Virus record (IMG/VR): IMGVR_UViG_3300003312_000001
Span: 1-61,588 of that record
Length of the DNA stretch: 61,588 nucleotides
Strand: one strand, 5' to 3'
From: a virus
Lineage: Duplodnaviria; Caudoviricetes
Shown: positions 1 through 54,676 of the stretch, one piece after another
Numbering within the stretch: the stretch's first letter is position 1
How the letters are laid out: every line of letters begins with the position of its first letter
The notes under the pieces: model-generated
Told to the model about the DNA's origin: nothing
The model's database searches: none
Seen by the model: only the letters and a program-made list of their open reading frames with translations
Position numbers and translations under genes: made by a program

Positions 1-99
1 GCCGCGAACTCGGCGCTCTGCCGCCAGGCGACCAGCGTGACGAAGTCGGTTTCTTTCTCGCCATTCGCGCTCTTGAACGGCCGATCTACGGCGATACGC
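1..99. repeat. Terminal direct repeat, copy 1 (circular assembly overlap)
   Basis: Bases 1-99 are identical to 61490-61588; the ssb ORF reads through the join. Confidence 0.97.
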
Positions 100-185
100 A
101 GCGTGGCCACACTGTGCCCGCTCTGCGTCGTCTTCAGTTCCGCATCGGCGCACATCCGGCCGACGAGGACAACTCTGTTCAACAT
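1..185 (-). CDS. ssb: Single-stranded DNA-binding protein, 5' part (continues across the circular join to 61273)
   Basis: Manual translation from ATG at 185: MLNRVVLVGRMCADAELKTTQSGHSVATLRIAVDRPFKSANGEKETDFVTLVAWRQSAEFAA; absent from the ORF track because it is split. Confidence 0.95.
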   Translation of the reverse strand, partial: MLNRVVLVGRMCADAELKTTQSGHSVATLRIAVDRPFKSANGEKETDFVTLVAWRQSAEFA

Positions 186-283
186 TCCACTCTCTCCCGA
201 GCCACCACGGGTGATCTATACGCGGCCGTGGCTACACTCCGCGCACCCCCATTCTACCACAACCAATTTATTGTGGCGGGAGT

Positions 284-302
284 CTAACGCTGCGTGTATA
301 AT
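284..302 (+). promoter_or_regulatory. Early promoter/operator motif copy 1 (CTAACGCTGCGTGTATAAT)
   Basis: TATAAT -10 preceded by CTAACGCWGSGTG, shared with 5123 and 8574. Confidence 0.7.
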
Positions 303-324
303 AGGCGCAGAGGTAGCAACTCCG

Positions 325-1590
325 ATGGCGAAGGTGACGATCACCCACTCGTGTGGGCACGAAGAGAGGCACGCTCTTTACGGACGCGCCAGCGACCGGA
401 AGTGGCTGGAGAAGACACTATCCGAGCGGTTGTGCGGCGACTGCTATGAAGCTGATGTAGCGGCCAAACGCGAGGCCGCCGCAGCGCAGGCAGAGGCGGA
501 TGCCCGCGAAGTCGGGCTGCCGGAACTGGTCGGCACGCCGAAGCAGGTGACGTGGGCGCTTCAACTCCGCGCCGAGTTTATGGCGCAGACAAGCGAGCGG
601 TTCCGGGAGATCATCGCGAAGATTGCGCGCAACCCCTTCGCTGATCGCGACGAGGGCGCGGCCAGGTTGAGAGGAGCGCTTCAAGCCCCGGGGGCGCTGG
701 ATGCGCTCCACTCCGTCCTGGAGACGAGCATCTGTGCCATCGCGGCCCAGCACACGAACGCATCCTACTGGATCGACAACCGACGCCTGAATCTGGACGC
801 CACGGTAGAAGCTGCTCTGAACGAGGTTTTCGACCCGGTGGCCGAGCGCGGTTTGAGCATTACCGACGCCATCACTGAGATCTCTTCTGCCGCAGCCAGA
901 GAGATTGCGGAAGAGAAGGTTGCCGCGTCCGAGGCGGCGCAGGCGGATGCAGAAGCGACGATCCGGCCGGAGAATGATCGCGGCCCGGCGGCGGCACGGG
1001 TCGTGTTGACGGGCAACAACATCAATGTCAGCTACCCAGACCGTAGCGATGCTCTCCTGGCTATCGTGCATCGCTACGACTCCGAATGGGATCACGCCGC
1101 GCGAGTGCATCAGATCGCGGCGTGGGTGCGTCCGCGCGATTGCGCCGCCCAACTGGCGCACGAACTGCTCACCGCCGGATTCCGCGTCATCATCTCTGAC
1201 GAGAATCTGCGCGAGATGGCGGCTAGCGGCAATTACACGCCCTGGACCGGCCGCGTCATCGCGAACCTCAAGGACCGGTCGGCCTTCACGGTGCGCTGGC
1301 TCGCGCGCGAGGACTGGTTCAATGCGGCTCGCCGTATTCCCGCCTACTACAAGGGCGTGCGCCATCAAGTGTCGGTATCGCCGGCCCGGTGGCAGGAACT
1401 GGAAGACTTTGCCCAGGCGCACGGTTTCGAGTTCACCTCTCCTGCTCGTCGCTGGATGGGCGAGCTCGCCGAGATTGAAGCGAGTATCCTGCCGCAGCCC
1501 ATAGGACCTGCGCCGGAACCGGATGACGAGGCCGAGCCCCCTGCCCCTACAGCGGAAGTGCCCGAGCACCTGATGGACAGCCCGTCGTGA
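325..1590 (+). CDS. Hypothetical protein with N-terminal Zn-ribbon (HSCGH...CxxC) and LPELxGTxKQxxWA motif; first gene of the SNF2/Ibr operon
   Basis: RBS GAGG, ATG at 325; stop overlaps SNF2 start; ORF-track start at 37 overlaps ssb. Confidence 0.75.
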   Translation: MAKVTITHSCGHEERHALYGRASDRKWLEKTLSERLCGDCYEADVAAKREAAAAQAEADAREVGLPELVGTPKQVTWALQLRAEFMAQTSERFREIIAKIARNPFADRDEGAARLRGALQAPGALDALHSVLETSICAIAAQHTNASYWIDNRRLNLDATVEAALNEVFDPVAERGLSITDAITEISSAAAREIAEEKVAASEAAQADAEATIRPENDRGPAAARVVLTGNNINVSYPDRSDALLAIVHRYDSEWDHAARVHQIAAWVRPRDCAAQLAHELLTAGFRVIISDENLREMAASGNYTPWTGRVIANLKDRSAFTVRWLAREDWFNAARRIPAYYKGVRHQVSVSPARWQELEDFAQAHGFEFTSPARRWMGELAEIEASILPQPIGPAPEPDDEAEPPAPTAEVPEHLMDSPS

Positions 1591-2999
1591 GGCCGGTGCC
1601 GCTGGCGACGGAGCTGATGCCGCATCAGCGCGAGGCGGTGGAGAAGCTGTCGCCCGTCCGCGTCGGCGCGCTCTTCATGGAGATGGGGACGGGCAAGAGC
1701 CGAACGGCTATCGAACTGGCGGCCCGACGGGCCGAGCGAATTAGCCGCGTCGTCTGGTTCTGCCCGGTCTCGCTGATGCGGACCGTCCGCGACGAGATTT
1801 ACAAGCACGTTCGAGGTGCGCGGGTCTACGTATTCGACGAGAAGAGCCGCGAAGGGTGCATCCCGTCGGCAGACTGGTATGTCGTCGGGATCGAGGGCAT
1901 GTCGCTGTCTGATCGGATCATTCTCGCGGTCAACTCGATCATTGAGGACGACACCATGGTGGTGCTGGACGAATCCAGTTACATCAAAGGCCACCGCGCC
2001 AGCCGGACCCAGTGGATAACGCGCGTCGGTGCGCGTGCGCACTACCGCCTCATCCTGACTGGCACTCCGATCAGCCAGGGGATTGAGGACCTCTACACGC
2101 AGATGCGGTTTCTCTCACCGGACATCCTGGGCTACCGCTCCTGGTACTCCTTTCAGCGCAATCACCTCGAATACCATCCGGAGCGGCGCGGCCAGGTGGT
2201 GCGCGCGAAGAACGAGGCGCTCGTGGCGGCCCGGATCGCGCCTTACACCTACCAGGTGACGAAAGAAGAGTGCCTCAACCTGCCAGCGAAGATCCACGTC
2301 GAGCGGACCTGCTGGATGACGGCCGAGCAGCGCGCGTTGTACGAGCGCGCGAAAGAGGAGATTCTGCTTTCGGTGCCCGAAGACGATTGGACGAGCACGA
2401 CCATCTACCGACTCTTCGGCGCGCTGCAGCAGATCACGTGCGGGTTCTGGAACCGCTACGCCAAGGGCGAGGGACCGGAACTGATCGAGGTCGAGCATCA
2501 CCGCCTGTCCCTGCTGCAGGAGACGCTGGCGCAGCTCGCGGGCGACAAGCGGGTGATCATCTGGACGAAGTACCGGCGCTGTCTCCACGAGATCAGCGAC
2601 ATGCTTGCGCGCGAGTTCGGCGCGCCGCCCGTCACGTTCTACGGCGACCTCAATCCAGAGCAGCGCCAGCAAGAGTTGCAGCGTTGGCGCGAGGGGGGAA
2701 CCCGCTTCTTCGTCTCGACGCCATCCTGTGGCGGGCACGGGCTTACGCTCAATGAAGCGGATCACGCCGTGTTCTTCACGAACGGGTTCAAATACTCGGA
2801 GCGTATACAGGCCGAGGACCGCTGCCACCGGATCGGGCAGACGATGCCCGTCACCTATGTCGATATCACCTGCGAAGATAGCATCGACGAGCGCATCAGC
2901 GCAGCGATTCGGCGCAAAGAGAACGTCGTCGAGGCGTTCAAGTCGGAACTGACCGGCGCGGATGGAGGAGGGCGGCGTGCTCTCCTGGATACGCTCTGA
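1587..2999 (+). CDS. SNF2-family (SF2) helicase/ATPase
   Basis: MEMGTGKS Walker A, VLDES, LILTGTP, GGHGLTL, QAEDRCHRIGQ. Confidence 0.93.
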   Translation: MRPVPLATELMPHQREAVEKLSPVRVGALFMEMGTGKSRTAIELAARRAERISRVVWFCPVSLMRTVRDEIYKHVRGARVYVFDEKSREGCIPSADWYVVGIEGMSLSDRIILAVNSIIEDDTMVVLDESSYIKGHRASRTQWITRVGARAHYRLILTGTPISQGIEDLYTQMRFLSPDILGYRSWYSFQRNHLEYHPERRGQVVRAKNEALVAARIAPYTYQVTKEECLNLPAKIHVERTCWMTAEQRALYERAKEEILLSVPEDDWTSTTIYRLFGALQQITCGFWNRYAKGEGPELIEVEHHRLSLLQETLAQLAGDKRVIIWTKYRRCLHEISDMLAREFGAPPVTFYGDLNPEQRQQELQRWREGGTRFFVSTPSCGGHGLTLNEADHAVFFTNGFKYSERIQAEDRCHRIGQTMPVTYVDITCEDSIDERISAAIRRKENVVEAFKSELTGADGGGRRALLDTL

Positions 3000-4378
3000 T
3001 GGGCAAGGTTTACCGGGAAGAGGACGTGCTGACGGCCGCACGGAAGCGCGTCAGCTTCGTATTCGACCATTTTGAGCAGGTGGTCGTCTCGTTCTCCGGC
3101 GGCAAGGACTCGACGGTCCTGCTCCACCTGGCGCGCGAGGAAGCACGTCGGCGCGGCCGGCAGGTTCACGCGATGTTCATCGACCTGGAATCGCAGTATC
3201 GCGTCACGATAGAGCACGTCGAGGCGGTGATGTTGGCAGATCCCGTGGTGGTGCCGATCTGGATCGCGCTCCCGCTCAACCTTCGGAACGCCGTCTCCGT
3301 CTTTCAGCCGCACTGGTGCCCGTGGGACCCGGGAGAGCGTGACATCTGGGTGCGTGATCTGCCCGCACACGAAGGCGTGGTGAGCGATCCCGAGGCGCTG
3401 CCCTGGTTCCGGCCCAGGATGGAGTTCGAGGAGTTCATCGTGCTCTACCCGAAGTGGGCCGCAGAGGGGCGGACCTATGCGAGCCTGGTCGGGAACTGCG
3501 CTGACGAGTCGCTCCACCGCTACTACTCAATCAAGGCGGTGGACAAGAAATGCGCCTGGTGGCACGACGGCAAGCGCGTCCAGTGGAGTGCGCAGATGAC
3601 CCCGAAGGACCCCAACGTCGTGACCTTCTTCCCGATCTACGACTGGACGGTGTCCGACATCTGGACCTACCACGGCGACGAGGGCATCAGGCACAACGAG
3701 ATTTACGACCTGATGCACCTTGCCGGAACGCCACTGACGGAGCAGCGTATCTGCCAGCCTTACGGCGACGATCAGCGGCGCGGGCTGGACCTATGGGCGA
3801 AGTGCGAGCCGGACACGTGGGAAGCGGTGCTGAACCGGGTCACGGGGGTGAACTACGGAGCACGCTATGCGGGCGATCAATTGCTCGGCTACCGGCGCGG
3901 CGTAGGGCTGCCCGCCGGCCACACGTGGAAGAGCTACACGTTCCTGCTGCTGGCCACCCTGCCGGACGTGCTGCGGGAGCGCTACCTATCGAACTTCGCT
4001 GTCTTCCTGGAGTGGTGGATGCGGCACGGCTATCCGGACATCCGCGCGGTTCACGACGACGAGACGGAGACGCTGAAGGAGAGCACGAGTCGGCGGCTTC
4101 CGTCGTGGCGTCGGCTCGCTCTGACCGTGCTCAAGAATGACTTCCTGGGCAAGAGCCTCTCCATTGGCCAGGTCAAGCACGTCTGGGCCGACGTGTACGA
4201 TCGCGTCGAGGCCGGAGAGCCCGTCAAGGTGCGGAAGAGCGTCCGACCGGTCTACGCCTACCTGCGCGACGAGTATGAGGCGTATCTGCGCCGTGGGGTC
4301 GAGGGCACGACCGTCGAATTGGCGGAATGTCGCGGCAGCCACATCGAGGCGATTAAGGAGCGGTACCGTGACCTTTAA
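2999..4378 (+). CDS. IbrA/YbdN-like PAPS-reductase-fold protein (DUF3440)
   Basis: SFSGGKDS PP-loop, PIYDW, QRICQPYG, GHTWKSY, PSWRR. Confidence 0.9.
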   Translation: MGKVYREEDVLTAARKRVSFVFDHFEQVVVSFSGGKDSTVLLHLAREEARRRGRQVHAMFIDLESQYRVTIEHVEAVMLADPVVVPIWIALPLNLRNAVSVFQPHWCPWDPGERDIWVRDLPAHEGVVSDPEALPWFRPRMEFEEFIVLYPKWAAEGRTYASLVGNCADESLHRYYSIKAVDKKCAWWHDGKRVQWSAQMTPKDPNVVTFFPIYDWTVSDIWTYHGDEGIRHNEIYDLMHLAGTPLTEQRICQPYGDDQRRGLDLWAKCEPDTWEAVLNRVTGVNYGARYAGDQLLGYRRGVGLPAGHTWKSYTFLLLATLPDVLRERYLSNFAVFLEWWMRHGYPDIRAVHDDETETLKESTSRRLPSWRRLALTVLKNDFLGKSLSIGQVKHVWADVYDRVEAGEPVKVRKSVRPVYAYLRDEYEAYLRRGVEGTTVELAECRGSHIEAIKERYRDL

Positions 4379-5117
4379 GCCGATCCGCGTCGGGGTCGAG
4401 ATCGAGTGCGTAATCGCTCGCGATCAGGCCGTCGAGTTGCTCTCGGCGCGCTACGGCGTCCGCGTGGAAGGCGTTCGCAAACTCCACCACGGGTTTATGG
4501 ACGTGTACCTGACGGGCGGCTGGGCCGTGCATGCGGAGCCGACTGTTCGCGTTGATGGCACTCCGAATGAGCACGCCGTGGAGATCATCAGCCCTCCCCT
4601 GCCGCCGGACAGCCCGCTTCTCGTGGGGCTCGGCGAGGAGCTGGCTGCCGCTGGCGCGGTGATCACGCCGACGTGCGCTCTGCACGTTCACGTGTCGGGG
4701 CCGCTCGTGCATCCGGCGGGGCTGGTGGCGATGTGTCGAGCGAGCCGAGTTTTCGAGCACCTGGTGAACAAGGAGCGTCGCCGGTGGGCAAAGCCTGTGC
4801 CCGAGAACGTGACGATGCTGGGGCGCCCTTCGCTGGACGAGCTGCGCCGCGAGTGGTTCGCTGCCCATCCGGCCTATCGCATCCCGGAGATGGGCGGCGG
4901 GCGCCGGCATCCCGCCCGGCGGCGGATGATCAACCTCGGCAGCATGTGGCATCGCGGCACGATGGAGGCGCGGTGGTTCAACGGCAGTCTCTCCACCGCC
5001 GACCTGCAGAAAGCCATACGTGACGCTGTCTTCGTCTTCGGCGAAGGGCCGGCTCCACGCTACCCTCCCCCAACCTACAGCATACCTGGACCTTCGATAG
5101 GGCGCGGCCACCGTTGA
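4368..5117 (+). CDS. Putative amidoligase (COOH-NH2 ligase, Amidoligase_2-like)
   Basis: GVEIE, EIISP, CALHVHV, N...GTMEARWFNGS motifs; AAGGAG RBS before GTG 4368. Confidence 0.78.
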   Translation: MTFKPIRVGVEIECVIARDQAVELLSARYGVRVEGVRKLHHGFMDVYLTGGWAVHAEPTVRVDGTPNEHAVEIISPPLPPDSPLLVGLGEELAAAGAVITPTCALHVHVSGPLVHPAGLVAMCRASRVFEHLVNKERRRWAKPVPENVTMLGRPSLDELRREWFAAHPAYRIPEMGGGRRHPARRRMINLGSMWHRGTMEARWFNGSLSTADLQKAIRDAVFVFGEGPAPRYPPPTYSIPGPSIGRGHR

Positions 5118-5141
5118 CAATACTAACGCTGGGTGTATAAT
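5114..5141 (+). promoter_or_regulatory. Sigma70-type promoter TTGACA-N16-TATAAT containing motif copy 2
   Basis: TTGACAATACTAACGCTGGGTGTATAAT. Confidence 0.8.
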
Positions 5142-5186
5142 GCCTCTGTCGCCGCAGGTGGCTGGCGATTATCACGAGGTAGCACG

Positions 5187-5603
5187 ATGAGAATGGAACT
5201 GAAAACCTACGAGGAGAAGACGCCCAAGTTTTGGTCGGTGATGGGGCCGCAGTTCGCGAGTCGCGCCATCCGCCGGGCGATGCCCTATCTGGCGGACGGA
5301 CCGGGACACGTCTGGTTTGTGCTCTCGGACCGGCGCGACCCGGACAATGTGCAGGCGTTCATGGCTGCGCACATCGACGACGAGGGCATCGGGCGTCTGC
5401 ACGAGCCTTACGCCGCATCCGATGCCGACACGCTTGCGCCGCTCGTCATCGAGGCGGCGATCCAGTGGCTTGTGCGCTCCGGAGTTAAGGAGATGCGCGC
5501 GAGCTGGAGCGGCAAGAGCGCGAAGTGGTTGACGGCGCTCGGGTTCGAGACTACTGACAGCAAGGGCGGCTACCAGAGGATGCGGAAGGTGATCGCGTCG
5601 TGA
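5187..5603 (+). CDS. GNAT-fold acyltransferase-like protein
   Basis: Size and pattern (WFV, FMAA, ...KWLTALGF) fit a GNAT fold; FWSVMGPQFASRAIRR N-terminus; lies just before IbrB. Confidence 0.6.
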   Translation: MRMELKTYEEKTPKFWSVMGPQFASRAIRRAMPYLADGPGHVWFVLSDRRDPDNVQAFMAAHIDDEGIGRLHEPYAASDADTLAPLVIEAAIQWLVRSGVKEMRASWSGKSAKWLTALGFETTDSKGGYQRMRKVIAS

Positions 5604-6238
5604 GCAGCATCGAGCGCAGCGCTATCGCGGATATGGCGCGCGAGTTGCGAGACGCCCTGGGCGCGCTGCCGACCGACGAGCGAATTACCGCTCTCAATGA
5701 GGTGCGGGCGCTGCTGCACGAGGTATCCCCCTTTGCCGGAGAGCCTGTGGATTTGGTGCAGTGGCTCCCGGCGGCGTTGGTCGCGCCCAACGACTACAAC
5801 CCGAACAAGGTTGCGCCTCCAGAGATGCGGTTGCTCCAGCACAGCATCCGCGCCGACGGCTACACGCAGCCGGTGGTTGCTTCGCCTGCCGAAGGGGGCT
5901 TCGAGGTGGTTGACGGATTCCATCGGACGCGGATCGGCAAGGAGTGTCGGGCCGTGCGTGACCGGGTGCTCGGGCACTTGCCGGTAGTCGTCCTGGCGGA
6001 GAGCCGGCGAGAAGTCGCGGACCGGATGGCGGCGACGATCCGGCACAACCGGGCGCGAGGCGTGCATGGCGTGCGCCCAATGGCTGACCTGGTCGCGGAG
6101 CTCATCCTGCAGGGCTGGGACGATACGCAGGTGGCGAAGGAGTTAGGTATGGACGCTGACGAGGTGCTCCGGTTCAAGCAGACCAAGGGCCTGCCTGAGC
6201 TGTTCAAAGGGAGCGGTTACAGCCGCTCGTGGGAGTAG
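5600..6238 (+). CDS. IbrB/YbdM-like ParB/Srx-domain protein
   Basis: NDYNPNKVAPPEM, GYTQPVV, VVDGFHR, ATIRHNRARG, LGMDADEVLR. Confidence 0.93.
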   Translation: MSSIERSAIADMARELRDALGALPTDERITALNEVRALLHEVSPFAGEPVDLVQWLPAALVAPNDYNPNKVAPPEMRLLQHSIRADGYTQPVVASPAEGGFEVVDGFHRTRIGKECRAVRDRVLGHLPVVVLAESRREVADRMAATIRHNRARGVHGVRPMADLVAELILQGWDDTQVAKELGMDADEVLRFKQTKGLPELFKGSGYSRSWE

Positions 6239-6241
6239 CAG

Positions 6242-6487
6242 ATGAGTGATGAGATGACTACCGCGGAAGTGGCGGAACGGCTCGGGGTTGACAGATCCCG
6301 GGTGCGCCAGCTCGCTATCGAGGGGCGGTTTCCGGGCGCGTACAATACGAGCCCCGGCACACCGCGTGGGGAGTGGCGCATCCCGACCGCCGGGCTTGCG
6401 TCCTACACCGAATGGGCTGCCCAGCAGCAGCCGAGCGTGCGCGAAACACGACCCGGCCGGCCGCCACGTGTCGGCGATGGAGACTAA
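6242..6487 (+). CDS. Excisionase-like HTH_17 DNA-binding protein
   Basis: MTTAEVAERLGVDRSRVRQLAIEGRFPGA...WRIP, C-terminal PGRPP. Confidence 0.8.
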   Translation: MSDEMTTAEVAERLGVDRSRVRQLAIEGRFPGAYNTSPGTPRGEWRIPTAGLASYTEWAAQQQPSVRETRPGRPPRVGDGD

Positions 6488-6490
6488 CAG

Positions 6491-6817
6491 ATGAACCAGC
6501 ACCCGATTGTCACGAGGGAGTTCACGTCCGAAGAGACGGAAGCTCTGACGGCGCTGGCGGACCAGGCCGACGAAGTGCTGTGGGACGAGAAATACGAGAA
6601 CCGGACTTTCCGGAACGGAATCGCGTGCCACAGCCCGATGATGGGGAAGCGGGCGGAAATGCTCGCTAATCGCATCACGGAGCGTCAGGCCGGGCTTTCG
6701 GAAGAGGACAAGGCGACCCACATACGAGCAGTGCTCGCCGGTTACAGGATGAAGATGCCGTCGCGGGGACTGCTGCTCCGGCGCTGCACGGATGAAGAGG
6801 ACGACGACGATGCTTGA
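6491..6817 (+). CDS. Hypothetical protein
   Basis: ORF in a co-directional, tightly packed run. Confidence 0.6.
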   Translation: MNQHPIVTREFTSEETEALTALADQADEVLWDEKYENRTFRNGIACHSPMMGKRAEMLANRITERQAGLSEEDKATHIRAVLAGYRMKMPSRGLLLRRCTDEEDDDDA

Positions 6818-7349
6818 ATTCGAGGTTGGGAAGCCCCGTCCGGACACAATGGCGCCGCCCATCGACACGTGGCAGTTCAACGTCACGGTGGTTGGCTACA
6901 CGCTCGATGCTTGGCTATCGCGGCCGAGCACGGCGGAGGTAGAGGCTGCGCGCGTGGGAGACGCCCGGTTCGGGCTCTACGTGCGCGATGATCTTCTGAT
7001 TCTCTTGCACAAGTTCGGGCGCGGCCAGTGGGGCGATAGTCCGTTCAACTGGCACGCCGTCCCGGAAGAGGGCCGGTGGCAGCCCGATCCGGAGCTAGGA
7101 CCTGCGCAGCGTGCGCCGCTTCAGGTGATGATGATGGACCGCGTCACGGGCATCATCGAGACGATGAGGCTCGTGACGTTCTCGCCCCAGTTCTCGACGG
7201 CGCTGAACCGCGCCATCGCCCGGCAGATCGCGCGCGGACCGTGCAGCGAGGCCGATTACGACGCCCAGCTCGCGCGGGCGTACCGGCTCTATCCCACGAC
7301 CGACGCCATGGCGAAGGCCGCCGACATCACGTGCAAAGGTGGCGAGTGA
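6810..7349 (+). CDS. Hypothetical phage protein
   Basis: ORF overlapping both neighbours. Confidence 0.7.
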   Translation: MLEFEVGKPRPDTMAPPIDTWQFNVTVVGYTLDAWLSRPSTAEVEAARVGDARFGLYVRDDLLILLHKFGRGQWGDSPFNWHAVPEEGRWQPDPELGPAQRAPLQVMMMDRVTGIIETMRLVTFSPQFSTALNRAIARQIARGPCSEADYDAQLARAYRLYPTTDAMAKAADITCKGGE

Positions 7350-7711
7350 TGATCCGCACTCGCGTTACATGCCCAACCGAGAGGTGCCGCGACTCGCTGG
7401 TGAGTGCCCTGCGGATTCTGGACGTGCCAGCAACCACGCTGGTGCCCGATCCTCTGCCGGAGGTGCTCTCGATACTCGCCCCGCAATCATTCCTGCCCAA
7501 GATCACCCGTCACCTGCGGAACAGCCCGTACGTGAAGTCTTACTTCTGCGGCCTCCCCGACGGCGAAAGCGAGCACGGCTTCGGGCGCGCAGGCAGCTTC
7601 CCTGGGACGGTATGCACTATCACGCGCACGGGACCTGATAGCTTCTACGCTCAGGCCGGGCCAGGGCGATTGCCCGCCGAGGACGACGAGGAAGAGCGGG
7701 CCCAGCCGTGA
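7349..7711 (+). CDS. Hypothetical protein
   Basis: TGATG coupling to the upstream gene. Confidence 0.6.
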   Translation: MIRTRVTCPTERCRDSLVSALRILDVPATTLVPDPLPEVLSILAPQSFLPKITRHLRNSPYVKSYFCGLPDGESEHGFGRAGSFPGTVCTITRTGPDSFYAQAGPGRLPAEDDEEERAQP

Positions 7712-8238
7712 GCACCACCACACTCGACGACGCCACGCGCGCCGTAATCGCAGCGTGGGAGCGCCTCGCGGAGCCGGCGGGGCTGCTGGAGTGGCTGGAG
7801 CAGAGGCCGAGAGGCCGTCGGCGATACGTCGCATACCCCCTCCATGTCACCGAGCGCGAGTTCCATCGCTACCTCAATGATGGGCGCGAGGCTGATGTCC
7901 GGCTCACTCTCTACTTGGGTCGCATCTACATCGAGTTAGCCGAGTTCAGCCCCGCCTTAATCGTGCAATTGCCAGCGTCGCAATGGGTCTCGCGCCTCGT
8001 CCAACGGCTTCTCAAATCGGAAGGTCACGACGCAGAGATGAAAGGGAGCTCCCTCGCAGCGCTGATCCGCGAGACGCTAGCGGAGGAGACCGCAGCAGCT
8101 GGGTTGCCGCCAGCGCGGCGCACCACGCAGGCAATGCTAGACGCCATAGATTCCGTTCGGACTTTGCAAGATGGGATGCAATCGGCGTCCGGCGAAGATA
8201 CGCCTCGACTGATTAGGCAGGCTAGAGGTGGCGAATGA
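7708..8238 (+). CDS. Hypothetical protein, diverged paralog of 33052/33501
   Basis: LAEPAGLLEWLEQR resembles VQDPAQLLAWLRER. Confidence 0.6.
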   Translation: MSTTTLDDATRAVIAAWERLAEPAGLLEWLEQRPRGRRRYVAYPLHVTEREFHRYLNDGREADVRLTLYLGRIYIELAEFSPALIVQLPASQWVSRLVQRLLKSEGHDAEMKGSSLAALIRETLAEETAAAGLPPARRTTQAMLDAIDSVRTLQDGMQSASGEDTPRLIRQARGGE

Positions 8239-8534
8239 CAGAAGCAGAAATCGCGGAGCTGCGCGCAACCTGGGAGAGCGACGCCGCCGCCGCTCGGCAG
8301 GCGCGGATCGAGGTGAGCGAGGCCGAGGAGCGCTGGCGGGATGCTTACTTCAAGGCGCAGCCGGCGTACGAAGCGCTCAAAGCTGCGGAGCAAGCGGCGG
8401 CGCGCGAGTCGCCGAGCTGGCCGGGGATCGGTCTCTACGAGGTGACTGTGACGCACGGCACGCCTGTCGCCGCGACGCGAGGCTTGGCGCGCGACTTCCC
8501 GGGCGATGCAGAGGGGCCGGACGAGGGCGAATGA
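8235..8534 (+). CDS. Hypothetical helical protein
   Basis: GAGGTG RBS, ATGA coupling. Confidence 0.6.
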   Translation: MTEAEIAELRATWESDAAAARQARIEVSEAEERWRDAYFKAQPAYEALKAAEQAAARESPSWPGIGLYEVTVTHGTPVAATRGLARDFPGDAEGPDEGE

Positions 8535-8564
8535 TCGCCCCTCAGAAAAAACTTCTGCGGATAG

Positions 8565-8592
8565 TTGCTATTACTAACGCAGGGTGTATAAT
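8565..8592 (+). promoter_or_regulatory. Sigma70-type promoter TTGCTA-N16-TATAAT containing motif copy 3
   Basis: TTGCTATTACTAACGCAGGGTGTATAAT. Confidence 0.75.
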
Positions 8593-8656
8593 GAGGTGTA
8601 GCCGGCCGGAGCGATCAGGCCCCGACCGGCCGAGCGCCCCACAGGAGGGGGCACAC

Positions 8657-9529
8657 ATGGATAGTATCAGCAGACTGGTCCGAATCTGCCATCAGGCGGC
8701 GGAGGGCGCACATGCCGCACGGAGGGAAGCCATCGACCACGCCGAGGGCCTGCGAATCTCGTCCGGCGCTCTTTCCGAGCAGGAGCGCTCCATGGGCGCT
8801 TCCAAGGCCCTGATTGCTGCCGAGCGCGCCGAGGCGGCGAAGCAGTTCGCGCGGCGGTGCATGGGAGCCGCCAGCCGGGCTCGTCGGCTCAGGCCTGAGG
8901 CGACTTACAGTCTCACCTTGCTGATCGCAGACTGCAAGCACGCTGCTGATTGCGCTGGTGTGGCTGCCACCCGGGCACGCATGTCTGTCCACCACCCGGA
9001 AGATTACGCGGCGCTGCACGCCGAGACGCTCCCGCCTACGGATTGGCTGGACAAGTGGAGTGAGGGATTCCTCGGCCGCACGCATGATGGCTGCCCCCCG
9101 GCTGCCACGCAGGATCAAGAGGCCGGGGAGAGAGGCGGCCCGATGAAAACGACCCACACCGGTTACGCCTTCGACGACCGCCCCTGCCACGTCACGCTCG
9201 ACAACGATTGCGCGCTCCCCGAGCATGCCGAGGCCCGCGTTTCGATCACCATGAGTGATGACGAGCTGGCGGGCATGCTGCTCACCCCAGCGGAAATCGA
9301 GCGCCTGGCGCGTGTGCCGGGAACGCGTCTCCGGCGGCTCGACGGCGATCTGCTTCGCGAGGCTGCCCGTATGTGCGGCTGCGGGATGCTTCTTCACCGC
9401 GACGGCGAGTGGTTCGCGACGTATCTGCCGACGGCGCGACAGATGGGAGTGGCGGCGGCGACCGAGTGGCACGGCCGCGCGGCAGCGGTGGCCGGCTTCC
9501 GCAAAGAGTTCAGTGAGGTGGCGCTGTGA
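8657..9529 (+). CDS. Hypothetical protein (possibly two in-frame units, second start at 9143)
   Basis: AGGAGG RBS before ATG 8657; second RBS and ATG at 9143. Confidence 0.55.
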   Translation: MDSISRLVRICHQAAEGAHAARREAIDHAEGLRISSGALSEQERSMGASKALIAAERAEAAKQFARRCMGAASRARRLRPEATYSLTLLIADCKHAADCAGVAATRARMSVHHPEDYAALHAETLPPTDWLDKWSEGFLGRTHDGCPPAATQDQEAGERGGPMKTTHTGYAFDDRPCHVTLDNDCALPEHAEARVSITMSDDELAGMLLTPAEIERLARVPGTRLRRLDGDLLREAARMCGCGMLLHRDGEWFATYLPTARQMGVAAATEWHGRAAAVAGFRKEFSEVAL

Positions 9530-10137
9530 ACGACACATTCCGACGCCAGATCTACACCGCCCAGCTTCTTGCCGAGCACCTCGGCCACGAGTGGGCATGC
9601 GCACTTACGCCCGAAGATCTGCACGAGATCATGGCTGACTGCAGCGACATTCACACTGCTGTCGCCGCGATCTCGGATGCGACCTTTGCGCGGCGCAGCG
9701 AGTACTCGCTGCCGTGCGGCATCACCGCGCCGCACGTCCAGCCGGATGGCGTTATTACCCACGCCACGGGGACGGGCCGGCTGCGGTGGCGGATCGACAC
9801 CGAGCGGTCGATCTGGCTCTCGGTGTGGCGCCCTCGCCGCATTGAGGCCGCCTGGACAGACGGGGCGCTGGAGGCGGTGGAATGGGGACATCCCCTCTGC
9901 TGCCATTTTGACAGCTCCGACCTGGCCCTGTGCGCTTTCCAGCGCGACGGGGCGGATTGGATCTTGATCAGGCCCGTCGGCGGCCCGGCTGTCGAAATCC
10001 GCCACAGCCTGGCGCTCGCCAATGCGCTGTGCGCCCTGAGTCCTTCCGGCGATGTCAACGAAGCGTTCTACCGCGCGGGGGTTGAACTCCCCGCCCTTTG
10101 GGACGCTGATCCATTGCCTGAGGTGGTGCATGCCTGA
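9526..10137 (+). CDS. Hypothetical protein
   Basis: GTGA coupling, GAGGTG RBS. Confidence 0.6.
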   Translation: MNDTFRRQIYTAQLLAEHLGHEWACALTPEDLHEIMADCSDIHTAVAAISDATFARRSEYSLPCGITAPHVQPDGVITHATGTGRLRWRIDTERSIWLSVWRPRRIEAAWTDGALEAVEWGHPLCCHFDSSDLALCAFQRDGADWILIRPVGGPAVEIRHSLALANALCALSPSGDVNEAFYRAGVELPALWDADPLPEVVHA

Positions 10138-10151
10138 GCTCGACGAGGCAC

Positions 10152-10367
10152 ATGAGACAGCAGACTTCTGAAGAAACAGCCTGGTGGAATGCGGCCTGCG
10201 CTTTTGACGACGCGAGAATGCAGCGGGACGATGCAGATGAAACCTTCCGACGCCATGGCGGGGTGAAGGCCTGGAGCCGACTGCAAGCCGCCGAAGCCAG
10301 GACCGTTGCGACTCTCGCTGTTCTCCGCGCAGCCGAAAGGTCCGTCGGGTTCAACGAACCACGCTAA
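10152..10367 (+). CDS. Small hypothetical protein
   Basis: GAGG RBS; last gene of the run. Confidence 0.5.
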   Translation: MRQQTSEETAWWNAACAFDDARMQRDDADETFRRHGGVKAWSRLQAAEARTVATLAVLRAAERSVGFNEPR

Positions 10368-10452
10368 CTCCCGATCTCACATTCATGGATGTGGCTGTCA
10401 CGAATTGCTGACAACATGCCTCTAAGACATGAATCCGCACTGATAGGAGTAG

Positions 10453-10491
10453 AGGCGTGAACTGTCAAGTAATCCTTGACAGTTCACGCCT
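10453..10491. terminator. 17-bp perfect inverted repeat between convergent genes
   Basis: AGGCGTGAACTGTCAAG-TAATC-CTTGACAGTTCACGCCT; no clear U-tract. Confidence 0.6.
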
Positions 10492-11434
10492 AACGCAGCG
10501 TCCAATCCGCCGGCCATCCGTTCTGACAGAAGATCCAGACTTTGTTCTGCGCCTGCGCTTCGGCGGCACTTCGTATCGCCGCGCGCTGCGCCTCGACGCC
10601 GGCAGCGCCGAGCTTGCCGTAATCGAGCGAGATGGCGCCGACGTGCTGGCCGCGTGGCGAGATGGCGCGGACCGACGCAAGCTGCCCATCCCACCGCCAT
10701 GAGGCGTAGGTGTAACCATCCTCGGCCCACCATGTCCCGCCGGCGCCGGAGTCGAGGATCGGCCGCGCGAAATCGCGGCAGCCCTCGCGCCGCCCTTCAA
10801 GGATGAGGCTGCCGGCGATGCCGGACGGGAGCCCGTGATGACCTGCGCAGGCCACAAGTTGCTCGGCGCGCATGGCGATTTGCGGATGTGGCTGCCAGTT
10901 CGCAGGGTCGCCGGGCGAGGCCTCGCGCTCGACGTTCCAGATCATGGAGCGCGCGCCGTACTCGCGCCCGATGCGGGCGATTGCGTCGATGTGCGCGAGG
11001 TAGGTTCCCCACGCGCCGGAATCTGACCACTCCGGAAAGAGCCCCCACGCGTTGCCCCGCACCATACCGTGCGTCTCCGCCTGGAGCGCCACGTGCAGTT
11101 CCCCGCCTGCAGGCAGCGCGTCGGCTGCACGTGCCACGAATTCCTTGATCCGCCCGACCTTGCCGTACTCCGGGTGGCACGGGTCCAGCCGGAGCAGGAA
11201 TCCGGTCACACCTGCGGCGGTCCACTGCTCGCGGGTCAGCGCGCCGACGCGTGACTGGCTGCCGTAGTAGAGCAGATTCACCGGTCCGGCGTAGTCGCTG
11301 GACGGCAGCGCCCGCACATCATCCTCGACCCGGTCGCGCTCCTCGCGCCGCGCCTGCCGCCGCGCTCTCCGCCGCTCCGCGATCTCACGCGCACTGCGCT
11401 TTACTTTCGCCACTGCCGCTCCCAGGTTACACAT
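10490..11434 (-). CDS. Hypothetical protein, possible TIM-barrel glycoside-hydrolase-like fold
   Basis: Alternating beta/alpha pattern, Trp-rich, IWNVE motif; fold call is inference. Confidence 0.5.
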   Translation of the reverse strand: MCNLGAAVAKVKRSAREIAERRRARRQARREERDRVEDDVRALPSSDYAGPVNLLYYGSQSRVGALTREQWTAAGVTGFLLRLDPCHPEYGKVGRIKEFVARAADALPAGGELHVALQAETHGMVRGNAWGLFPEWSDSGAWGTYLAHIDAIARIGREYGARSMIWNVEREASPGDPANWQPHPQIAMRAEQLVACAGHHGLPSGIAGSLILEGRREGCRDFARPILDSGAGGTWWAEDGYTYASWRWDGQLASVRAISPRGQHVGAISLDYGKLGAAGVEAQRAAIRSAAEAQAQNKVWIFCQNGWPADWTLR

Positions 11435-11442
11435 GCCTCAAT

Positions 11443-11478
11443 CTGCCGATCTAGCGTGCGCGGGATGGGTAGTGGGTG
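11443..11478 (+). promoter_or_regulatory. Bipartite late motif copy 1, CTGCCGAT-N15-TGGGTAGTGGGTG
   Basis: Exact match, directly upstream of the 11492 tail operon. Confidence 0.75.
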
Positions 11479-11491
11479 AGTCCGACGCCAC

Positions 11492-13603: not shown

Positions 13604-14499
13604 TGAGTTGGTCCGGTCTCTCGAAGACGCTGCCGGCAGCGCAACCGCTGTCGAGCGCGGCCGCTCGGATGGGCGCGCAGCCGATTCCCGGCGGGGGCGG
13701 GGGGCTACCCGTCACGACATTCAACCCTCTCACCGGCGCATCCGCCCGGAACGCGATCTGGGACCTGACGGGCTCGGGCTGGGATCAAGGCGTCTGGGGC
13801 GGTCAGATTCCCTGGTTCATCGCGCGCTTGAACGATAGCCTCGAACTGCGCGCGGGCCAGGGCAGCGGGACTTACACACGCAGCGGCACGACGACGCGCG
13901 TGAACGACCAGGGCACGACGGACACCGTGGCAGCGAACACGGCTCCCTTCGACTGGATCGCGGGCCCGGCGGGCATCTCCAGGTATGCCTTGCGGTGCGA
14001 TCTGTCCGGAGCGGCGCTCTCCTACCCGACGGATCGCAACATCCGGCGCACGCAAGGCGGGATCAGCCTGTGGTTCCGAACGGTAGCGTCCGGCGGTGGG
14101 CCGTTTCCGACTCCCCTGTACGATCGCGTGCTCTGGAGCTGCGGTGACTGGAAGCTTTCCATCCCGGCCAGCACGACTACCCTCAGGTGGCAGGTCACAC
14201 TGCAGGACGGCACAACGGCCTCTGCCGATTTTGGCGTGAGTGCGTGGGTAGTGGGTGAGTGGCGCCACGTGGCGGCGGACTGGAGCAGGGTTGATGGATC
14301 GGTGCGCATCTGGACTGATGGCGTGCTCCGAACCACGACAGCCACAGCGCAGCGGTATGCCGAGTTGGCGGACCAATGCACGGTGGGCCACGCCGCGACA
14401 ACGTCGCAGCAGTGCGACGGCTACATCGTCGATGCCAGAGTGTGGCCGGTGCGGTTTACAACCACCCTGGCGTCAGCAGTTTTTGCTGTGAAAGCCTGA
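13603..14499 (+). CDS. Tail protein with LamG/ConA-like domain
   Basis: GGISLWF...GEWRHVAADW...RIWTDG...DGYIVDARVW. Confidence 0.75.
   Translation: MSWSGLSKTLPAAQPLSSAAARMGAQPIPGGGGGLPVTTFNPLTGASARNAIWDLTGSGWDQGVWGGQIPWFIARLNDSLELRAGQGSGTYTRSGTTTRVNDQGTTDTVAANTAPFDWIAGPAGISRYALRCDLSGAALSYPTDRNIRRTQGGISLWFRTVASGGGPFPTPLYDRVLWSCGDWKLSIPASTTTLRWQVTLQDGTTASADFGVSAWVVGEWRHVAADWSRVDGSVRIWTDGVLRTTTATAQRYAELADQCTVGHAATTSQQCDGYIVDARVWPVRFTTTLASAVFAVKA
14222..14257 (+). promoter_or_regulatory. Bipartite late motif copy 2 (inside the LamG CDS)
   Basis: CTGCCGAT-TTTGGCGTGAGTGCG-TGGGTAGTGGGTG, 15-nt spacer. Confidence 0.65.
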
Positions 14500-20247: not shown

Positions 20248-20267
20248 AGCACCTCCAGCAGCGAAAC

Positions 20268-20287
20268 TATAGAACAACTGTTCTATA
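20268..20287. promoter_or_regulatory. LexA-type SOS box in a palindrome upstream of int
   Basis: TATAGAAC-AACT-GTTCTATA matches GAAC-N4-GTTC. Confidence 0.7.
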
Positions 20288-47863: not shown

Positions 47864-47869
47864 CCGGCT

Positions 47870-54675: not shown

Positions 54676-54676
54676 C

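What the first reader, a model, noticed from the sequence alone, without database searches (positions are those of the whole stretch)
325..6487. Candidate novel DNA-modification or anti-defence operon: SNF2 + IbrA (PAPS-reductase fold) + amidoligase + GNAT + IbrB (ParB/Srx) + HTH
Seen: seven tightly coupled genes behind a dedicated repeated promoter. Known: IbrA/IbrB (YbdN/YbdM) were described as prophage gene co-activators without a defined biochemistry; PP-loop PAPS-reductase-fold proteins (DndC, SspD) act in DNA phosphorothioation; GNAT-fold Mom modifies phage DNA; COOH-NH2 ligases form amide bonds using ATP. Inference: an ATP-dependent activation enzyme, an amide ligase, an acyltransferase, a ParB-like nucleotide-binding protein and a DNA translocase together look like a pathway that installs a new sulfur/acyl/amide modification on phage DNA or on a host target. 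The amidoligase between ibrA and the GNAT is the unusual addition.
Basis: partly seen in the sequence, partly recalled or inferred. Interest (0 to 1): 0.9.

Follow-up and report, generated by a model that had tools for sequence, protein, structure and literature searches.

The report
Extended IbrA–IbrB phage module with amidoligase
A temperate phage carries the widespread but biochemically unsolved IbrA–IbrB gene pair in an extended form with a DNA motor and a GNAT-fold protein, plus a rare inserted amide-forming enzyme; this makes a testable candidate for a DNA-directed modification machine, but nothing here shows what it does.

Summary
The genes are real, with corrections. The window is a 61.5-kb circularly assembled temperate siphophage. 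Positions 325-6487 hold an unknown protein (G1), an SNF2 helicase, IbrA (PAPS-reductase fold + DUF3440), Amidoligase_2, a GNAT-fold protein, IbrB (ParB-like) and an HTH protein. It is not one operon. The same promoter (TAACGCTGNGTGTATAAT) occurs three times (285, 5124, 8575), so there are two units: G1-SNF2-IbrA-amidoligase, and GNAT-IbrB-HTH plus four more genes ending at 8534.

In 160 IbrA loci from other viruses and genomes, IbrB is adjacent in 158. The GNAT is adjacent in 76 and fused to IbrA in 2. G1 and SNF2 lie upstream in about 20 of 80 viral loci, and are fused to each other in several. The recurring core is therefore G1-SNF2-IbrA-GNAT-IbrB.

The amidoligase is not a regular partner: it is present in 1 of these 160 loci besides the window. 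It is catalytically intact and translationally coupled to IbrA. The window's GNAT lacks the acyl-CoA-binding loop.

The module is not a Dnd, Ssp, BREX or Dpd member. A DNA-directed, ParB-assisted ATP-pyrophosphatase reaction is the best guess (about 0.4) and is unproven. Verdict: a new variant of a known, uncharacterised kind.

The parts
285..302 (+). Promoter copy P1: shared extended -10 block TAACGCTGCGTGTATAAT, with a poor -35. It lies 22 nt upstream of the G1 start.
   Evidence: 3 matches, 0 expected; sequence and alignment. Promoter function is inferred, not shown.
325..1590 (+). G1: 421-aa protein of unknown function with a Cys/His-rich N-terminus. It is the accessory partner of the SNF2 helicase.
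   Evidence: No Pfam or NCBIfam hit; phrog_16123 at 3.2e-23. Homologues lie directly upstream of SNF2 in 21 of 80 viral IbrA loci. G1 is fused to SNF2 in L003, an 874-aa ORF, and by ORF length also in L007, L008 and L018. The Atlas gave only hypothetical-protein clusters.
1587..2999 (+). SNF2-family ATPase/translocase, 470 aa. Motifs I (GTGKS), II (DESS) and VI (QAEDRCHRIGQ) are visible in the sequence.
   Evidence: PADLOC's nearest families are ZorD and DpdE, by partial matches only.
2999..4378 (+). IbrA-like protein, 459 aa. It has an N-terminal PP-loop ATP-pyrophosphatase domain (PAPS-reductase fold, SGGKDS) and an all-helical DUF3440 domain with an invariant R-x-C-Q-P-x-G-D-x-Q block.
   Evidence: Pfam. 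(51-sequence alignment: S33, G35, K36, D37, S38, D62, E64, R96, N97, E170, S171, R174, C252, Q253, P254, G256, D257 and Q259 invariant). (AF2 pLDDT 83.2; Foldseek matches CysH, FAD synthase, CysD, LarE and TilS over the N-domain only).
4368..5117 (+). Amidoligase_2 (glutamine-synthetase-like COOH-NH2 ligase), 249 aa. GTG start with an AGGAG ribosome-binding site inside the IbrA 3' end. A lineage-specific insertion.
   Evidence: All nine fully invariant columns of a 121-sequence family alignment are kept: G9, E11, E13, E72, H106, H108, N189, E200, R202. No near homologue in the 5.8-billion-protein search, none in phage records, none in the PDB.
5114..5141 (+). Promoter copy P2: TTGACA, 16-nt spacer, TATAAT (12 of 12), containing the shared block.
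5187..5603 (+). GNAT-fold protein, 138 aa. It belongs to a GNAT clade that sits between IbrA and IbrB. This copy lacks the R-G-x-G acyl-CoA loop.
5600..6238 (+). IbrB-like ParB/Srx-superfamily protein, 212 aa. Invariant D-G-x-H-R and H-N-R-A-R-G blocks.
   Evidence: Adjacent to IbrA in 158 of 160 loci.
6242..6487 (+). HTH_17 (excisionase/MerR-like) DNA-binding protein, 81 aa. Not a conserved member of the module.
   Evidence: A homologue was found only in L005.
6491..8534 (+). Four more genes of the second unit: 6491-6817, 6792-7349 (phrog_12389), 7708-8238 and 8235-8534. All are of unknown function.
   Evidence: Only 6792-7349 recurs near IbrAB modules, in L009, L014 and L019. The Atlas was inconclusive.
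8565..8592 (+). Promoter copy P3 (TTGCTA, 16-nt spacer, TATAAT). It starts the next unit and marks the end of this one.

Best explanation
This is the extended form of the widespread phage and prophage IbrA-IbrB pair, G1-SNF2-IbrA-GNAT-IbrB. It sits in a self-promoted accessory island of a temperate siphophage, and one lineage-specific Amidoligase_2 gene has been inserted between IbrA and the GNAT gene.

Proposed working:
1. Host sigma-70 RNA polymerase reads the two units from copies of one promoter, independently of the late operon (sequence shown, function inferred).
2. IbrB, a ParB/Srx-type nucleotide- and DNA-binding protein, recruits or activates IbrA on double-stranded DNA, as ParB-like proteins do for DpdA and for a subclass of phage thymine dioxygenases (inferred by analogy).
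3. IbrA uses its PP-loop to spend ATP as AMP + PPi and adenylates an oxygen of its target. The invariant Cys of the DUF3440 block or an external nucleophile then resolves the intermediate (inferred from superfamily chemistry).
4. The GNAT-fold protein is a docked subunit of IbrA. In this phage it is more likely a substrate-binding adaptor than an acyl-CoA transferase.
5. G1-SNF2 supplies ATP-driven movement along DNA.
6. The amidoligase is active-looking and co-translated with IbrA. It either adds an amide-linked group to the product or is unrelated cargo. I rate these two options about equal, leaning towards cargo.

The target (phage DNA, host DNA or incoming DNA) and the chemistry are unknown.
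For: Anatomy and families.

Promoter repeat: (3 observed, 0 expected).

Recurrence (on loci):
- IbrB adjacent to IbrA in 80 of 80 viral loci and 78 of 80 genome loci.
- GNAT adjacent in 15 of 80 and 61 of 80.
- SNF2 upstream in 20 of 80 and 4 of 80; G1 upstream in 21 of 80 and 2 of 80.

Gene fusions:
- IbrA+GNAT in one 578-aa ORF in L120 and L132 (IbrA profile on residues 3-400, GNAT profile on 442-576).
- G1+SNF2 in L003.
- The module spans 31-65% G+C.

Enzyme competence:
- The PP-loop SGGKDS and other IbrA columns are invariant in 51 of 51 sequences.
- The IbrB DGxHR and HNRARG blocks are invariant in 47 of 47.
- All 9 invariant amidoligase residues are kept.

Complex prediction (IbrA+GNAT with IbrB as the scored partner):
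- Verdict 'weak support'. Median score 0.59, best of 3 controls 0.00.
- The tool's mark was reached by 58 of 80 solved complexes and 2 of 110 mismatched pairs. At 0.60 or under it was reached by only 7 of those 80 solved complexes and by both mismatches.
- The runs agree in at least 51% of contacts, and the partner's pLDDT is at least 67.
- My own alignments were used, so the calibration holds only roughly.

Precedent for ParB-type activators of DNA-modifying enzymes: PMC13229309 (abstract read) and a DpdA/DpdB passage in PMC12839542.
Against: - No experiment or sequencing-kinetics data bear on a DNA modification.
- IbrA is not a DndC, SspD or BrxP member: matches cover the P-loop only and are far below cut-offs.
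- No cysteine desulfurase or other sulfur donor was seen among the ten proteins scanned.
- The only genetic work on IbrAB that I could trace (Sandt et al. 2002, title seen in a reference list; paper not held) concerns activation of prophage gene expression, not DNA chemistry.
- The module sits at 'moron' positions: here between the tape measure and the tail genes; after the lysin gene in Streptococcus phage CHPC1230; next to antirepressors in Escherichia phage PhiR5_2. These positions fit a role in the lysogen as well as self-modification.
- The window's GNAT and most Clostridia-type copies lack the acyl-CoA loop.
- The amidoligase is absent from 159 of 160 other IbrA loci.
- Amidoligases of this clade often have a glutamine-amidotransferase-like neighbour: a C26-type gene in 12 of 80 amidoligase loci and a class-II GATase in L197. 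No such gene exists in this phage.
- The surveys are capped at 80 loci each, are seeded by short peptide patterns, and contain near-duplicate contigs and many related Clostridia genome bins, so the counts are not independent events.
Confidence: 0.4

Rival explanations
1. The module is a transcription switch. IbrB (a ParB-like DNA clamp or binder) with IbrA, helped by the SNF2 remodeller and the HTH protein, activates prophage or host genes, as the 'co-activator of prophage gene expression' annotation says. The enzyme-like domains serve regulation, for example nucleotide sensing.
For: - The product names IbrA/IbrB 'co-activator of prophage gene expression' appear in deposited phage records.
- The title of Sandt et al. 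[quoted passage not shown]
- The module has its own sigma-70-type promoters and lies outside the replication module.
- An HTH protein lies directly downstream.
Against: - Catalytic signatures are strictly conserved: the PP-loop is invariant in 51 of 51 sequences and the SNF2 ATPase motifs are intact. This is unusual for a pure regulator.
- The HTH gene is not conserved with the module.
- Activation of genes could itself be a consequence of DNA modification, so the two readings are not exclusive.
- I could not read the primary paper.
Confidence: 0.25
2. The module is a conflict system expressed from the prophage. It either defends the lysogen against other phages or disarms a host defence early in infection. 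It would act through nuclease or NTPase activity of the ParB/Srx protein and the SNF2 motor, or on a nucleotide pool, rather than by marking DNA.
For: - It lies in a moron-like island with its own promoters between tail genes, beside a tRNA.
- The SNF2 protein's nearest defence-family profiles are ZorD (7.9e-35) and DpdE (5.6e-32).
- ParB/Srx domains in conflict systems are described as nucleases or NTPases (passages of PMC5512222 and PMC10853773).
- The amidoligase loci often lie beside ParB, D12 methyltransferase and DUF932 genes, which are typical accessory or anti-restriction neighbourhoods.
Against: - No protein of the module belongs to a PADLOC system. IbrB, GNAT, G1 and the amidoligase give 0 PADLOC families.
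- No nuclease domain other than the ParB-like one was found.
- In some phages the pair lies among replication and recombination genes, as in Microcystis phage Mwe-JY13.
Confidence: 0.2
3. The amidoligase is unrelated cargo. A mobile amidoligase gene landed in the IbrA-GNAT junction together with, or compensated by, a new copy of the phage's standard promoter. It has its own target, for example gamma-glutamylation-type chemistry on a small amine or a protein.
For: - It is absent between IbrA and GNAT in all relatives. Those junctions are tight, for example L003 at 9386/9392.
- It occurs in 1 of 160 other IbrA loci and 1 of 50 viral records.
- P2 lies exactly behind it.
- Amidoligases of this clade recur with GATase-like genes (12 of 80 loci with a C26-type gene; class-II GATase in L197), not with IbrA.
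Against: - It is translationally coupled to IbrA by an 11-nt overlap.
- IbrA or IbrB genes lie within 7 kb in several amidoligase lineages (IbrA in 5 of 80 loci, IbrB-like in 7 of 80). That is above the background of 223 of 50,697 phage records.
- Its usual GATase partner is missing here, so it may have found a new partner.
Confidence: 0.55
4. IbrA is an auxiliary sulfur-metabolism gene (CysH-type PAPS reductase) that boosts host sulfate assimilation, as the PHROG category suggests.
For: phrog_2302 is labelled 'phosphoadenosine phosphosulfate reductase' in the category 'moron, auxiliary metabolic gene and host takeover'. The N-domain has the CysH fold.
Against: - It scores 19.4 bits against the 154-bit cut-off of the CysH model, and 35.6-39.6 bits against 195-397 for CysD.
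- It carries a 220-residue DUF3440 domain that CysH lacks.
- It is adjacent to a ParB-like gene in 158 of 160 loci.
Confidence: 0.02

Closest known systems
IbrA/IbrB of the Escherichia coli ECOR-9 IbrAB island (paralogues YbdN/YbdM in K-12; these paralogue names are recalled), and the 'IbrA/IbrB' genes annotated in many phages
   Same: The domain pair is the same: PAPS_reduct + DUF3440 next to a ParB-like protein. tblastn gives 37-39% identity to IbrA of Escherichia phage PhiR5_2 and Streptococcus phage CHPC1230. The pair is always adjacent.
   Different: Here the pair is split by a GNAT-fold gene and an amidoligase, and is preceded by G1 and SNF2. The annotated phage examples I opened have only IbrA-IbrB. 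The biochemistry of the family is unknown: there are no solved relatives.
DndC/DndB of Dnd phosphorothioation, SspD of Ssp, BrxP of type-4 BREX
   Same: A PAPS-reductase-fold PP-loop protein is combined with a ParB-superfamily protein (DndB), and the systems act on DNA (passages of PMC10853773 and PMC12839542).
   Different: IbrA matches DndC and BrxP only at the P-loop (TIGR03183 20.4 bits against a cut-off of 290.4; PADLOC E about 1e-4). No DndA, DndD, DndE, SspB or SspC-like gene is present among the ten proteins scanned. IbrA has DUF3440 instead of the DndC-specific parts.
ParB-like activators of DNA-modifying enzymes: DpdB with DpdA (7-deazaguanine in DNA), and ParB with a subclass of phage thymine dioxygenases
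   Same: A short phage or island ParB-like protein is encoded next to, and needed by, an enzyme that modifies double-stranded DNA after replication (PMC13229309 abstract; PMC12839542 passage). The Dpd islands also hold SNF2 helicases, and DpdE is among the nearest profiles of this SNF2.
   Different: The partner enzyme here is a PP-loop ATP-pyrophosphatase, not a transglycosylase or a dioxygenase. The dependence of IbrA on IbrB is only inferred from co-occurrence and a weak complex prediction.
Phage Amidoligase_2 + glutamine-amidotransferase-like cassettes
   Same: The family is the same (PF12224, 62.3 bits), and all invariant residues are kept.
   Different: Relatives sit beside a Peptidase_C26/GATase-I gene (L003; 12 of 80 loci) or a class-II GATase (L197). 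This phage has neither, and its copy is very divergent, with no near homologue.
GCN5-related N-acetyltransferases (PaiA, GCN5/PCAF, SpeG)
   Same: The fold is the same (Foldseek probability 1.0, TM 0.66-0.76). Of 36 sequence homologues, 32 match Acetyltransf_1.
   Different: The window copy has no Pfam hit and lacks the R/Q-x-x-G-x-G/A loop. The family instead has a strongly conserved N-terminal F-W-x-x-M-G-P-F-F-A-S-R block. No relation to phage Mu Mom was tested.

Membership tests
IbrA family (PAPS_reduct + DUF3440) | Both Pfam domains score above their gathering cut-offs and occur in this order | tested here: met
   PF01507 55 bits (cut-off 22.5) and PF11922 104.1 bits (cut-off 25).
IbrA family (PAPS_reduct + DUF3440) | Intact PP-loop (S-G-G-x-D-S) | tested here: met
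   SFSGGKDS at residues 31-38. S33, G35, K36, D37 and S38 are invariant in 51 of 51 sequences.
IbrB family (ParB/Srx-like partner of IbrA) | A ParB N-terminal-type domain, encoded next to IbrA | tested here: met
   phrog_2159 at 2.1e-64. Pfam ParB_N scores only 23.2 bits, below its 26.3 cut-off. Adjacent to IbrA in 158 of 160 loci.
Dnd / Ssp / type-4 BREX phosphorothioation | A DndC, SspD or BrxP-type sulfurtransferase scoring above the family cut-off | tested here: not met
   TIGR03183 20.4 bits against a cut-off of 290.4. PADLOC DndC and BrxP have E about 1e-4 over 18-24 residues.
Dnd / Ssp / type-4 BREX phosphorothioation | Companion genes present (cysteine desulfurase DndA, DndD/DndE or SspB/SspC, PglZ/BrxL) | tested here: not met
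   None appear among the ten proteins of 325-8238 in Pfam, NCBIfam or PADLOC. The rest of the phage was scanned only in part.
Dpd (7-deazaguanine DNA modification) | A DpdA-type transglycosylase together with DpdB and DpdC | tested here: not met
   Only partial SNF2 matches to DpdE were found. No TGT-like hit appears.
GNAT acetyltransferases | GNAT fold | tested here: met
   AF2 pLDDT 96.6. Foldseek has 374 PDB matches at E<=0.001, and the top hits are all GNATs.
GNAT acetyltransferases | Acyl-CoA pyrophosphate-binding loop R/Q-x-x-G-x-G/A after strand 4 | tested here: not met
   The window has ...YAASDA--DTLAP... where relatives have R-G-x-G-V. There is no Pfam GNAT hit for the window copy.
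Amidoligase_2 (PF12224) | A profile match above the cut-off, with the conserved metal- and ATP-binding residues | tested here: met
   62.3 bits against a cut-off of 22. All 9 fully invariant columns are kept.
SNF2 helicases | SNF2-rel_dom + Helicase_C with ATPase motifs | tested here: met
   The motifs were read directly from the translation.
Single operon behind one dedicated promoter | One promoter upstream and none inside | tested here: not met
   A consensus promoter lies at 5114-5141, inside the cluster. Transcription itself was not measured.

The most novel reading that the evidence does not exclude
G1-SNF2-IbrA-GNAT-IbrB is a new class of post-replicative DNA modification machine. A ParB-type activator loads a PP-loop enzyme onto double-stranded DNA. 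The enzyme adenylates a base or backbone oxygen and replaces it with sulfur or an amine, while an SNF2 motor spreads the mark. In this phage the inserted amidoligase would extend the mark by an amide-linked group, giving a hypermodified base of a kind not yet described. If so, many virome 'cysH auxiliary metabolic genes' would really be DNA-modifying enzymes.
Probability: 0.15. Interest if true: 0.85.

Novelty: new variant of a known kind. Interest (0 to 1): 0.55.

Why it matters
IbrA/IbrB-type pairs are common. An IbrA relative was found in 223 of 50,697 deposited phage records, and further relatives occur in viral contigs and bacterial genome bins from 31% to 65% G+C. Yet I found no biochemical function and no solved structure for them.

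Databases file IbrA as a sulfur 'auxiliary metabolic gene'. Its fixed pairing with a ParB-like protein makes that label unlikely.

The survey here defines a fuller unit to clone and test, G1-SNF2-IbrA-GNAT-IbrB, supported by two kinds of gene fusion. It also shows that the GNAT partner is often degenerate, and it separates the rare amidoligase add-on from the core.

If the module modifies DNA, it would add a new enzyme class to phage-host conflict biology and to DNA-labelling tools. If it is a regulator or a defence, the same constructs would show that.

Tried and rejected
Steps that led nowhere:
- The first 8 kb has no near-identical DNA in deposited phages.
- Single-sequence searches for the amidoligase and the GNAT protein returned only the proteins themselves in the 5.8-billion-protein set. 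They returned nothing in viral contigs or phage records.
- The GNAT question was settled instead by the exhaustive HMMER job. The amidoligase question was settled by a profile built from 120 homologues of the L003 amidoligase.
- Sequencing runs: none was listed for 200-9000 and no RNA holder was listed. Read laying was therefore not used, and promoter use and expression remain untested.
- The Atlas gave only hypothetical clusters for G1 and was inconclusive for gene 6792-7349.
- The C-terminal DUF3440 domain found no structural match.
- PDB sequence searches for IbrA, IbrB and the amidoligase gave only P-loop or ParB-box fragments, or nothing.

Readings rejected:
- Membership in Dnd, Ssp, BREX or Dpd.
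- A CysH-type metabolic gene.
- A single seven-gene operon.

Literature:
- Searches found no paper on the mechanism of IbrA/IbrB or on a GNAT or amidoligase partner.
- The Sandt 2002 paper and the Maindola 2014 paper are not held.
- Supplements were closed and were not consulted. The neighbourhood tables of PMC12839542, PMC10853773 and PMC5512222 might list such modules.
- The Iyer et al. 2009 amidoligase paper, the Mom chemistry and the YbdN/YbdM names are recalled, not seen.

Survey limits:
- Each related-loci run is capped at 80 loci and seeded by short peptide patterns.
- PF12224 was run on 50 of the 80 viral records.
- My own HMMs saw only +/-7-8 kb around each hit.
- No rows were dropped from the counts. 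Near-duplicate contigs were not collapsed.
- The SNF2 and G1 profiles were cross-contaminated by fusion proteins. They were rebuilt cleanly before counting.

Full report
**What the window is.** The window is a complete-looking IMG/VR virus record of 61,588 bp with a 99-nt direct terminal repeat, which indicates a circular assembly. It has about 65% G+C. It encodes:
- an integrase (19213-20415, minus strand);
- a Sak4-like protein, a primase-helicase, a second helicase and a sliding-clamp-like protein;
- terminase, portal and major head protein, and a tape-measure protein at 57088-60213;
- lectin-fold and fibre-like tail proteins at 13.6-18 kb.

It is therefore a temperate siphophage. The finding lies in a stretch of about 12.7 kb (60.2 kb across the junction to 11.4 kb) between the tape-measure gene and the remaining tail genes. 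That stretch also holds a tRNA-Thr.

**Checking the observation.** The ORFs exist and are tightly packed.

| Gene | Coordinates | Identity and evidence |
|---|---|---|
| G1 | 325-1590 | Unknown; phrog_16123 only |
| SNF2 | 1587-2999 | SNF2 helicase |
| IbrA | 2999-4378 | PAPS_reduct + DUF3440 |
| Amidoligase | 4368-5117 | Amidoligase_2 |
| GNAT | 5187-5603 | No family hit of its own |
| IbrB | 5600-6238 | ParB-like |
| HTH | 6242-6487 | HTH_17 |

The amidoligase probably starts at a GTG that overlaps the IbrA stop by 11 nt, behind an AGGAG.

The 'dedicated repeated promoter' is real. TAACGCTGNGTGTATAAT occurs at 285, 5124 and 8575, with none expected in shuffles. The copy at 5114-5141 is a perfect TTGACA-16-TATAAT and lies inside the cluster. 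So there are two units, not one operon:
- G1-SNF2-IbrA-amidoligase;
- GNAT-IbrB-HTH plus four further small genes, ending at 8534 just before the third promoter copy.

Transcription itself was not measurable, because no sequencing run was listed.

**Is the small protein a GNAT?** The window protein has no family hit. An exhaustive HMMER search found 43 relatives. Of the 36 that I aligned, 32 match Acetyltransf_1. The AlphaFold model (pLDDT 96.6) matches PaiA, GCN5 and PCAF with probability 1.0.

However, the loop that binds the pyrophosphate of acyl-CoA is deleted in the window copy. This loop reads R-G-x-G-V in the proteobacterial-type relatives and in the closest relative, L084. It is also missing in most Clostridia-type copies. 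What the whole family does conserve is an N-terminal F-W-x-x-M-G-P-F-F-A-S-R block.

**Recurrence elsewhere.** An IbrA alignment retrieved 80 viral loci and 80 loci in bacterial genome bins. I called ORFs and scored them with profiles built here.

| Feature next to IbrA | Viral loci (of 80) | Genome loci (of 80) |
|---|---|---|
| IbrB adjacent | 80 | 78 |
| GNAT of this clade adjacent | 15 | 61 |
| SNF2 upstream | 20 | 4 |
| G1 homologue upstream | 21 | 2 |

Two architectures exist:
- IbrB then IbrA, in 55 viral loci;
- IbrA then IbrB, in 25 viral loci and 77 genome loci. The SNF2, G1 and GNAT genes go with this second order.

Fusions tie the parts together:
- IbrA+GNAT form one 578-aa ORF in L120 and L132.
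- G1+SNF2 form one ORF in L003, and by ORF length also in L007, L008 and L018.

The closest relatives (62-69% IbrA identity: L003-L005 and L084) have IbrA and GNAT abutting, with no amidoligase between them. The HTH gene and the four trailing genes are not conserved, apart from 6792-7349, which recurs in three loci.

These counts are not independent events. The genome set is dominated by related Clostridia bins, and both sets contain near-duplicates.

**The amidoligase.** It looks active. All nine fully invariant columns of a 121-sequence family alignment are kept. But it is not a regular member of the module:
- My profile finds it in the window and in L003 only, among 161 loci.
- PF12224 finds it in 1 of the 50 viral records searched.

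Starting from the amidoligase side (80 viral loci), an IbrA gene lies within 7 kb in 5 loci and an IbrB-like gene in 7. This is well above the 223 of 50,697 phage records that hold an IbrA relative. The distances are 1-2.5 kb, though, and the neighbourhoods also hold ParB, D12 methyltransferase, DUF932 and above all GATase-like genes: Peptidase_C26 in L003 and in 12 of 80 loci, and a class-II GATase in L197.

The window has no GATase-like gene. The simplest history is that an amidoligase inserted into the IbrA-GNAT junction, with promoter copy P2 restoring expression of the downstream genes. Translational coupling to IbrA keeps open the possibility that it now works with the module.

**What the core proteins are.**
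- IbrA has an intact PP-loop and a set of residues invariant in 51 of 51 sequences, including a single invariant Cys in the DUF3440 block R-x-C-Q-P-x-G-D-x-Q. Its model (pLDDT 83.2) matches CysH, FAD synthase, CysD, LarE and TilS over the N-domain only. The helical C-domain matches nothing.
- IbrA is far below the cut-offs of CysH, CysD, DndC, BrxP and LarE. It is neither a sulfate-assimilation enzyme nor a Dnd, Ssp or BREX component.
- IbrB keeps D-G-x-H-R and H-N-R-A-R-G blocks in 47 of 47 sequences.
- No relative of either protein has a solved structure.
- A three-chain complex prediction with IbrB as the scored partner gave 'weak support'. The score was 0.59 against 0.00 for the best of three controls. 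The tool's mark was reached by 58 of 80 solved complexes and 2 of 110 mismatches, but scores of 0.60 or less were reached by only 7 of the 80 and by both mismatches. Run agreement was at least 51% of contacts and partner pLDDT at least 67. Given the near-perfect co-occurrence the prior was high, so I count this as mild support for a complex.

**How it most likely works.**
- Shown: the gene content, the conserved catalytic signatures, the co-occurrence and fusions, and the promoter repeats.
- Inferred: the module acts on DNA, because it combines an SNF2 translocase, a ParB-type protein and an HTH protein. IbrB would recruit or activate IbrA there. This follows the published pattern of ParB-like activators of DNA-modifying enzymes: phage thymine dioxygenases (PMC13229309, abstract) and DpdB with DpdA (PMC12839542 passage).
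- Also inferred: IbrA does PP-loop chemistry, adenylating an oxygen that is then displaced by a thiol, persulfide or amine.
- The GNAT-fold protein is a docked subunit. In this phage it probably binds rather than transfers an acyl group.

I put about 0.4 on this DNA-directed modification model.

**Rivals.**
- A transcription-activator role (0.25). This is the historical annotation, and the title of Sandt et al. 2002 was seen in a reference list. I could not read the paper.
- A prophage-expressed defence or anti-defence device (0.2). The accessory-island position, also seen in Streptococcus phage CHPC1230 and Escherichia phage PhiR5_2, and the ZorD/DpdE-like SNF2 fit this.
- These readings overlap. 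A DNA mark could be how genes are activated or how DNA is protected.

**Novelty.** The IbrA/IbrB pair is a known, widely annotated but uncharacterised kind. In eight full-text searches I found no description of the following:
- the five-gene core with its fusions;
- the frequent degeneration of the GNAT cofactor loop;
- the amidoligase insertion.

Supplements and several key papers were out of reach, so earlier mention cannot be excluded. I rate it a new variant of a known kind, with interest 0.55.

Noticed in passing
window 11432-11480, 14211-14259, 47859-47907, 54666-54714: A 49-nt repeat family (CTGCCGAT...GTGGGTAGTGGGTGAG). Three copies (11432, 47859, 54666) lie just upstream of plus-strand structural genes that start at 11492, 47903 and 54738. 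It looks like a late-gene regulatory or promoter element distinct from the sigma-70-type promoter of the module.
   Followed up: no
window 60210-61588 and 1-11434: The module sits in an island of about 12.7 kb that interrupts the tail gene block between the tape-measure gene (57088-60213) and the next tail genes (11492 onward). The island has minus-strand small genes at both ends (60210-61440 and 10490-11434) and three copies of one promoter. This is an unusual place for accessory genes. A chimeric assembly cannot be excluded.
   Followed up: partly
window 60838-60911 and 20342-20414: A tRNA-Thr (CGT) lies inside the island and is confirmed by Rfam. ARAGORN alone also calls a tRNA-Ala (CGC) overlapping the 5' end of the integrase ORF. 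It might mark the attachment region or be spurious.
   Followed up: no
window 33040-33913: Direct repeats of 132 nt (82% identical) and 69 nt (93% identical), spaced about 410-450 nt apart, suggest tandemly duplicated small early genes.
   Followed up: no
L003 12816-15475 (the same contig as L164): Amidoligase_2, then Peptidase_C26/GATase-I, then a full-length ParB with its HTH domain, 2.4 kb downstream of an IbrA-GNAT-IbrB module. The amidoligase-plus-C26 pairing resembles gamma-glutamyl ligase/hydrolase pairs (this resemblance is recalled, not tested).
   Followed up: partly
L197 2428-8602: The gene order is DUF932, unknown, a short IbrA-like PAPS_reduct protein (354 aa), ParB, two unknowns, Amidoligase_2, then a class-II GATase. 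This is a second, independent lineage in which an amidoligase lies close to an IbrA/IbrB pair.
   Followed up: partly
L117 8001-10980: A contig labelled as a Methanobrevibacter genome bin carries IbrA-GNAT-IbrB plus a second IbrA fragment. This is either an archaeal provirus or a binning artefact.
   Followed up: no
window 2999-4378: PHROGs files this family (phrog_2302) as 'phosphoadenosine phosphosulfate reductase' in the auxiliary-metabolic-gene category. Its obligate pairing with a ParB-like gene suggests that many virome 'cysH AMG' calls of this type are mislabelled.
   Followed up: partly
window 28286-29974 and 24812-27937: The phage has a second SF2 helicase (phrog_16) and a primase-helicase in its replication block. 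The SNF2 of the module is therefore an extra motor, not the replicative helicase.
   Followed up: no
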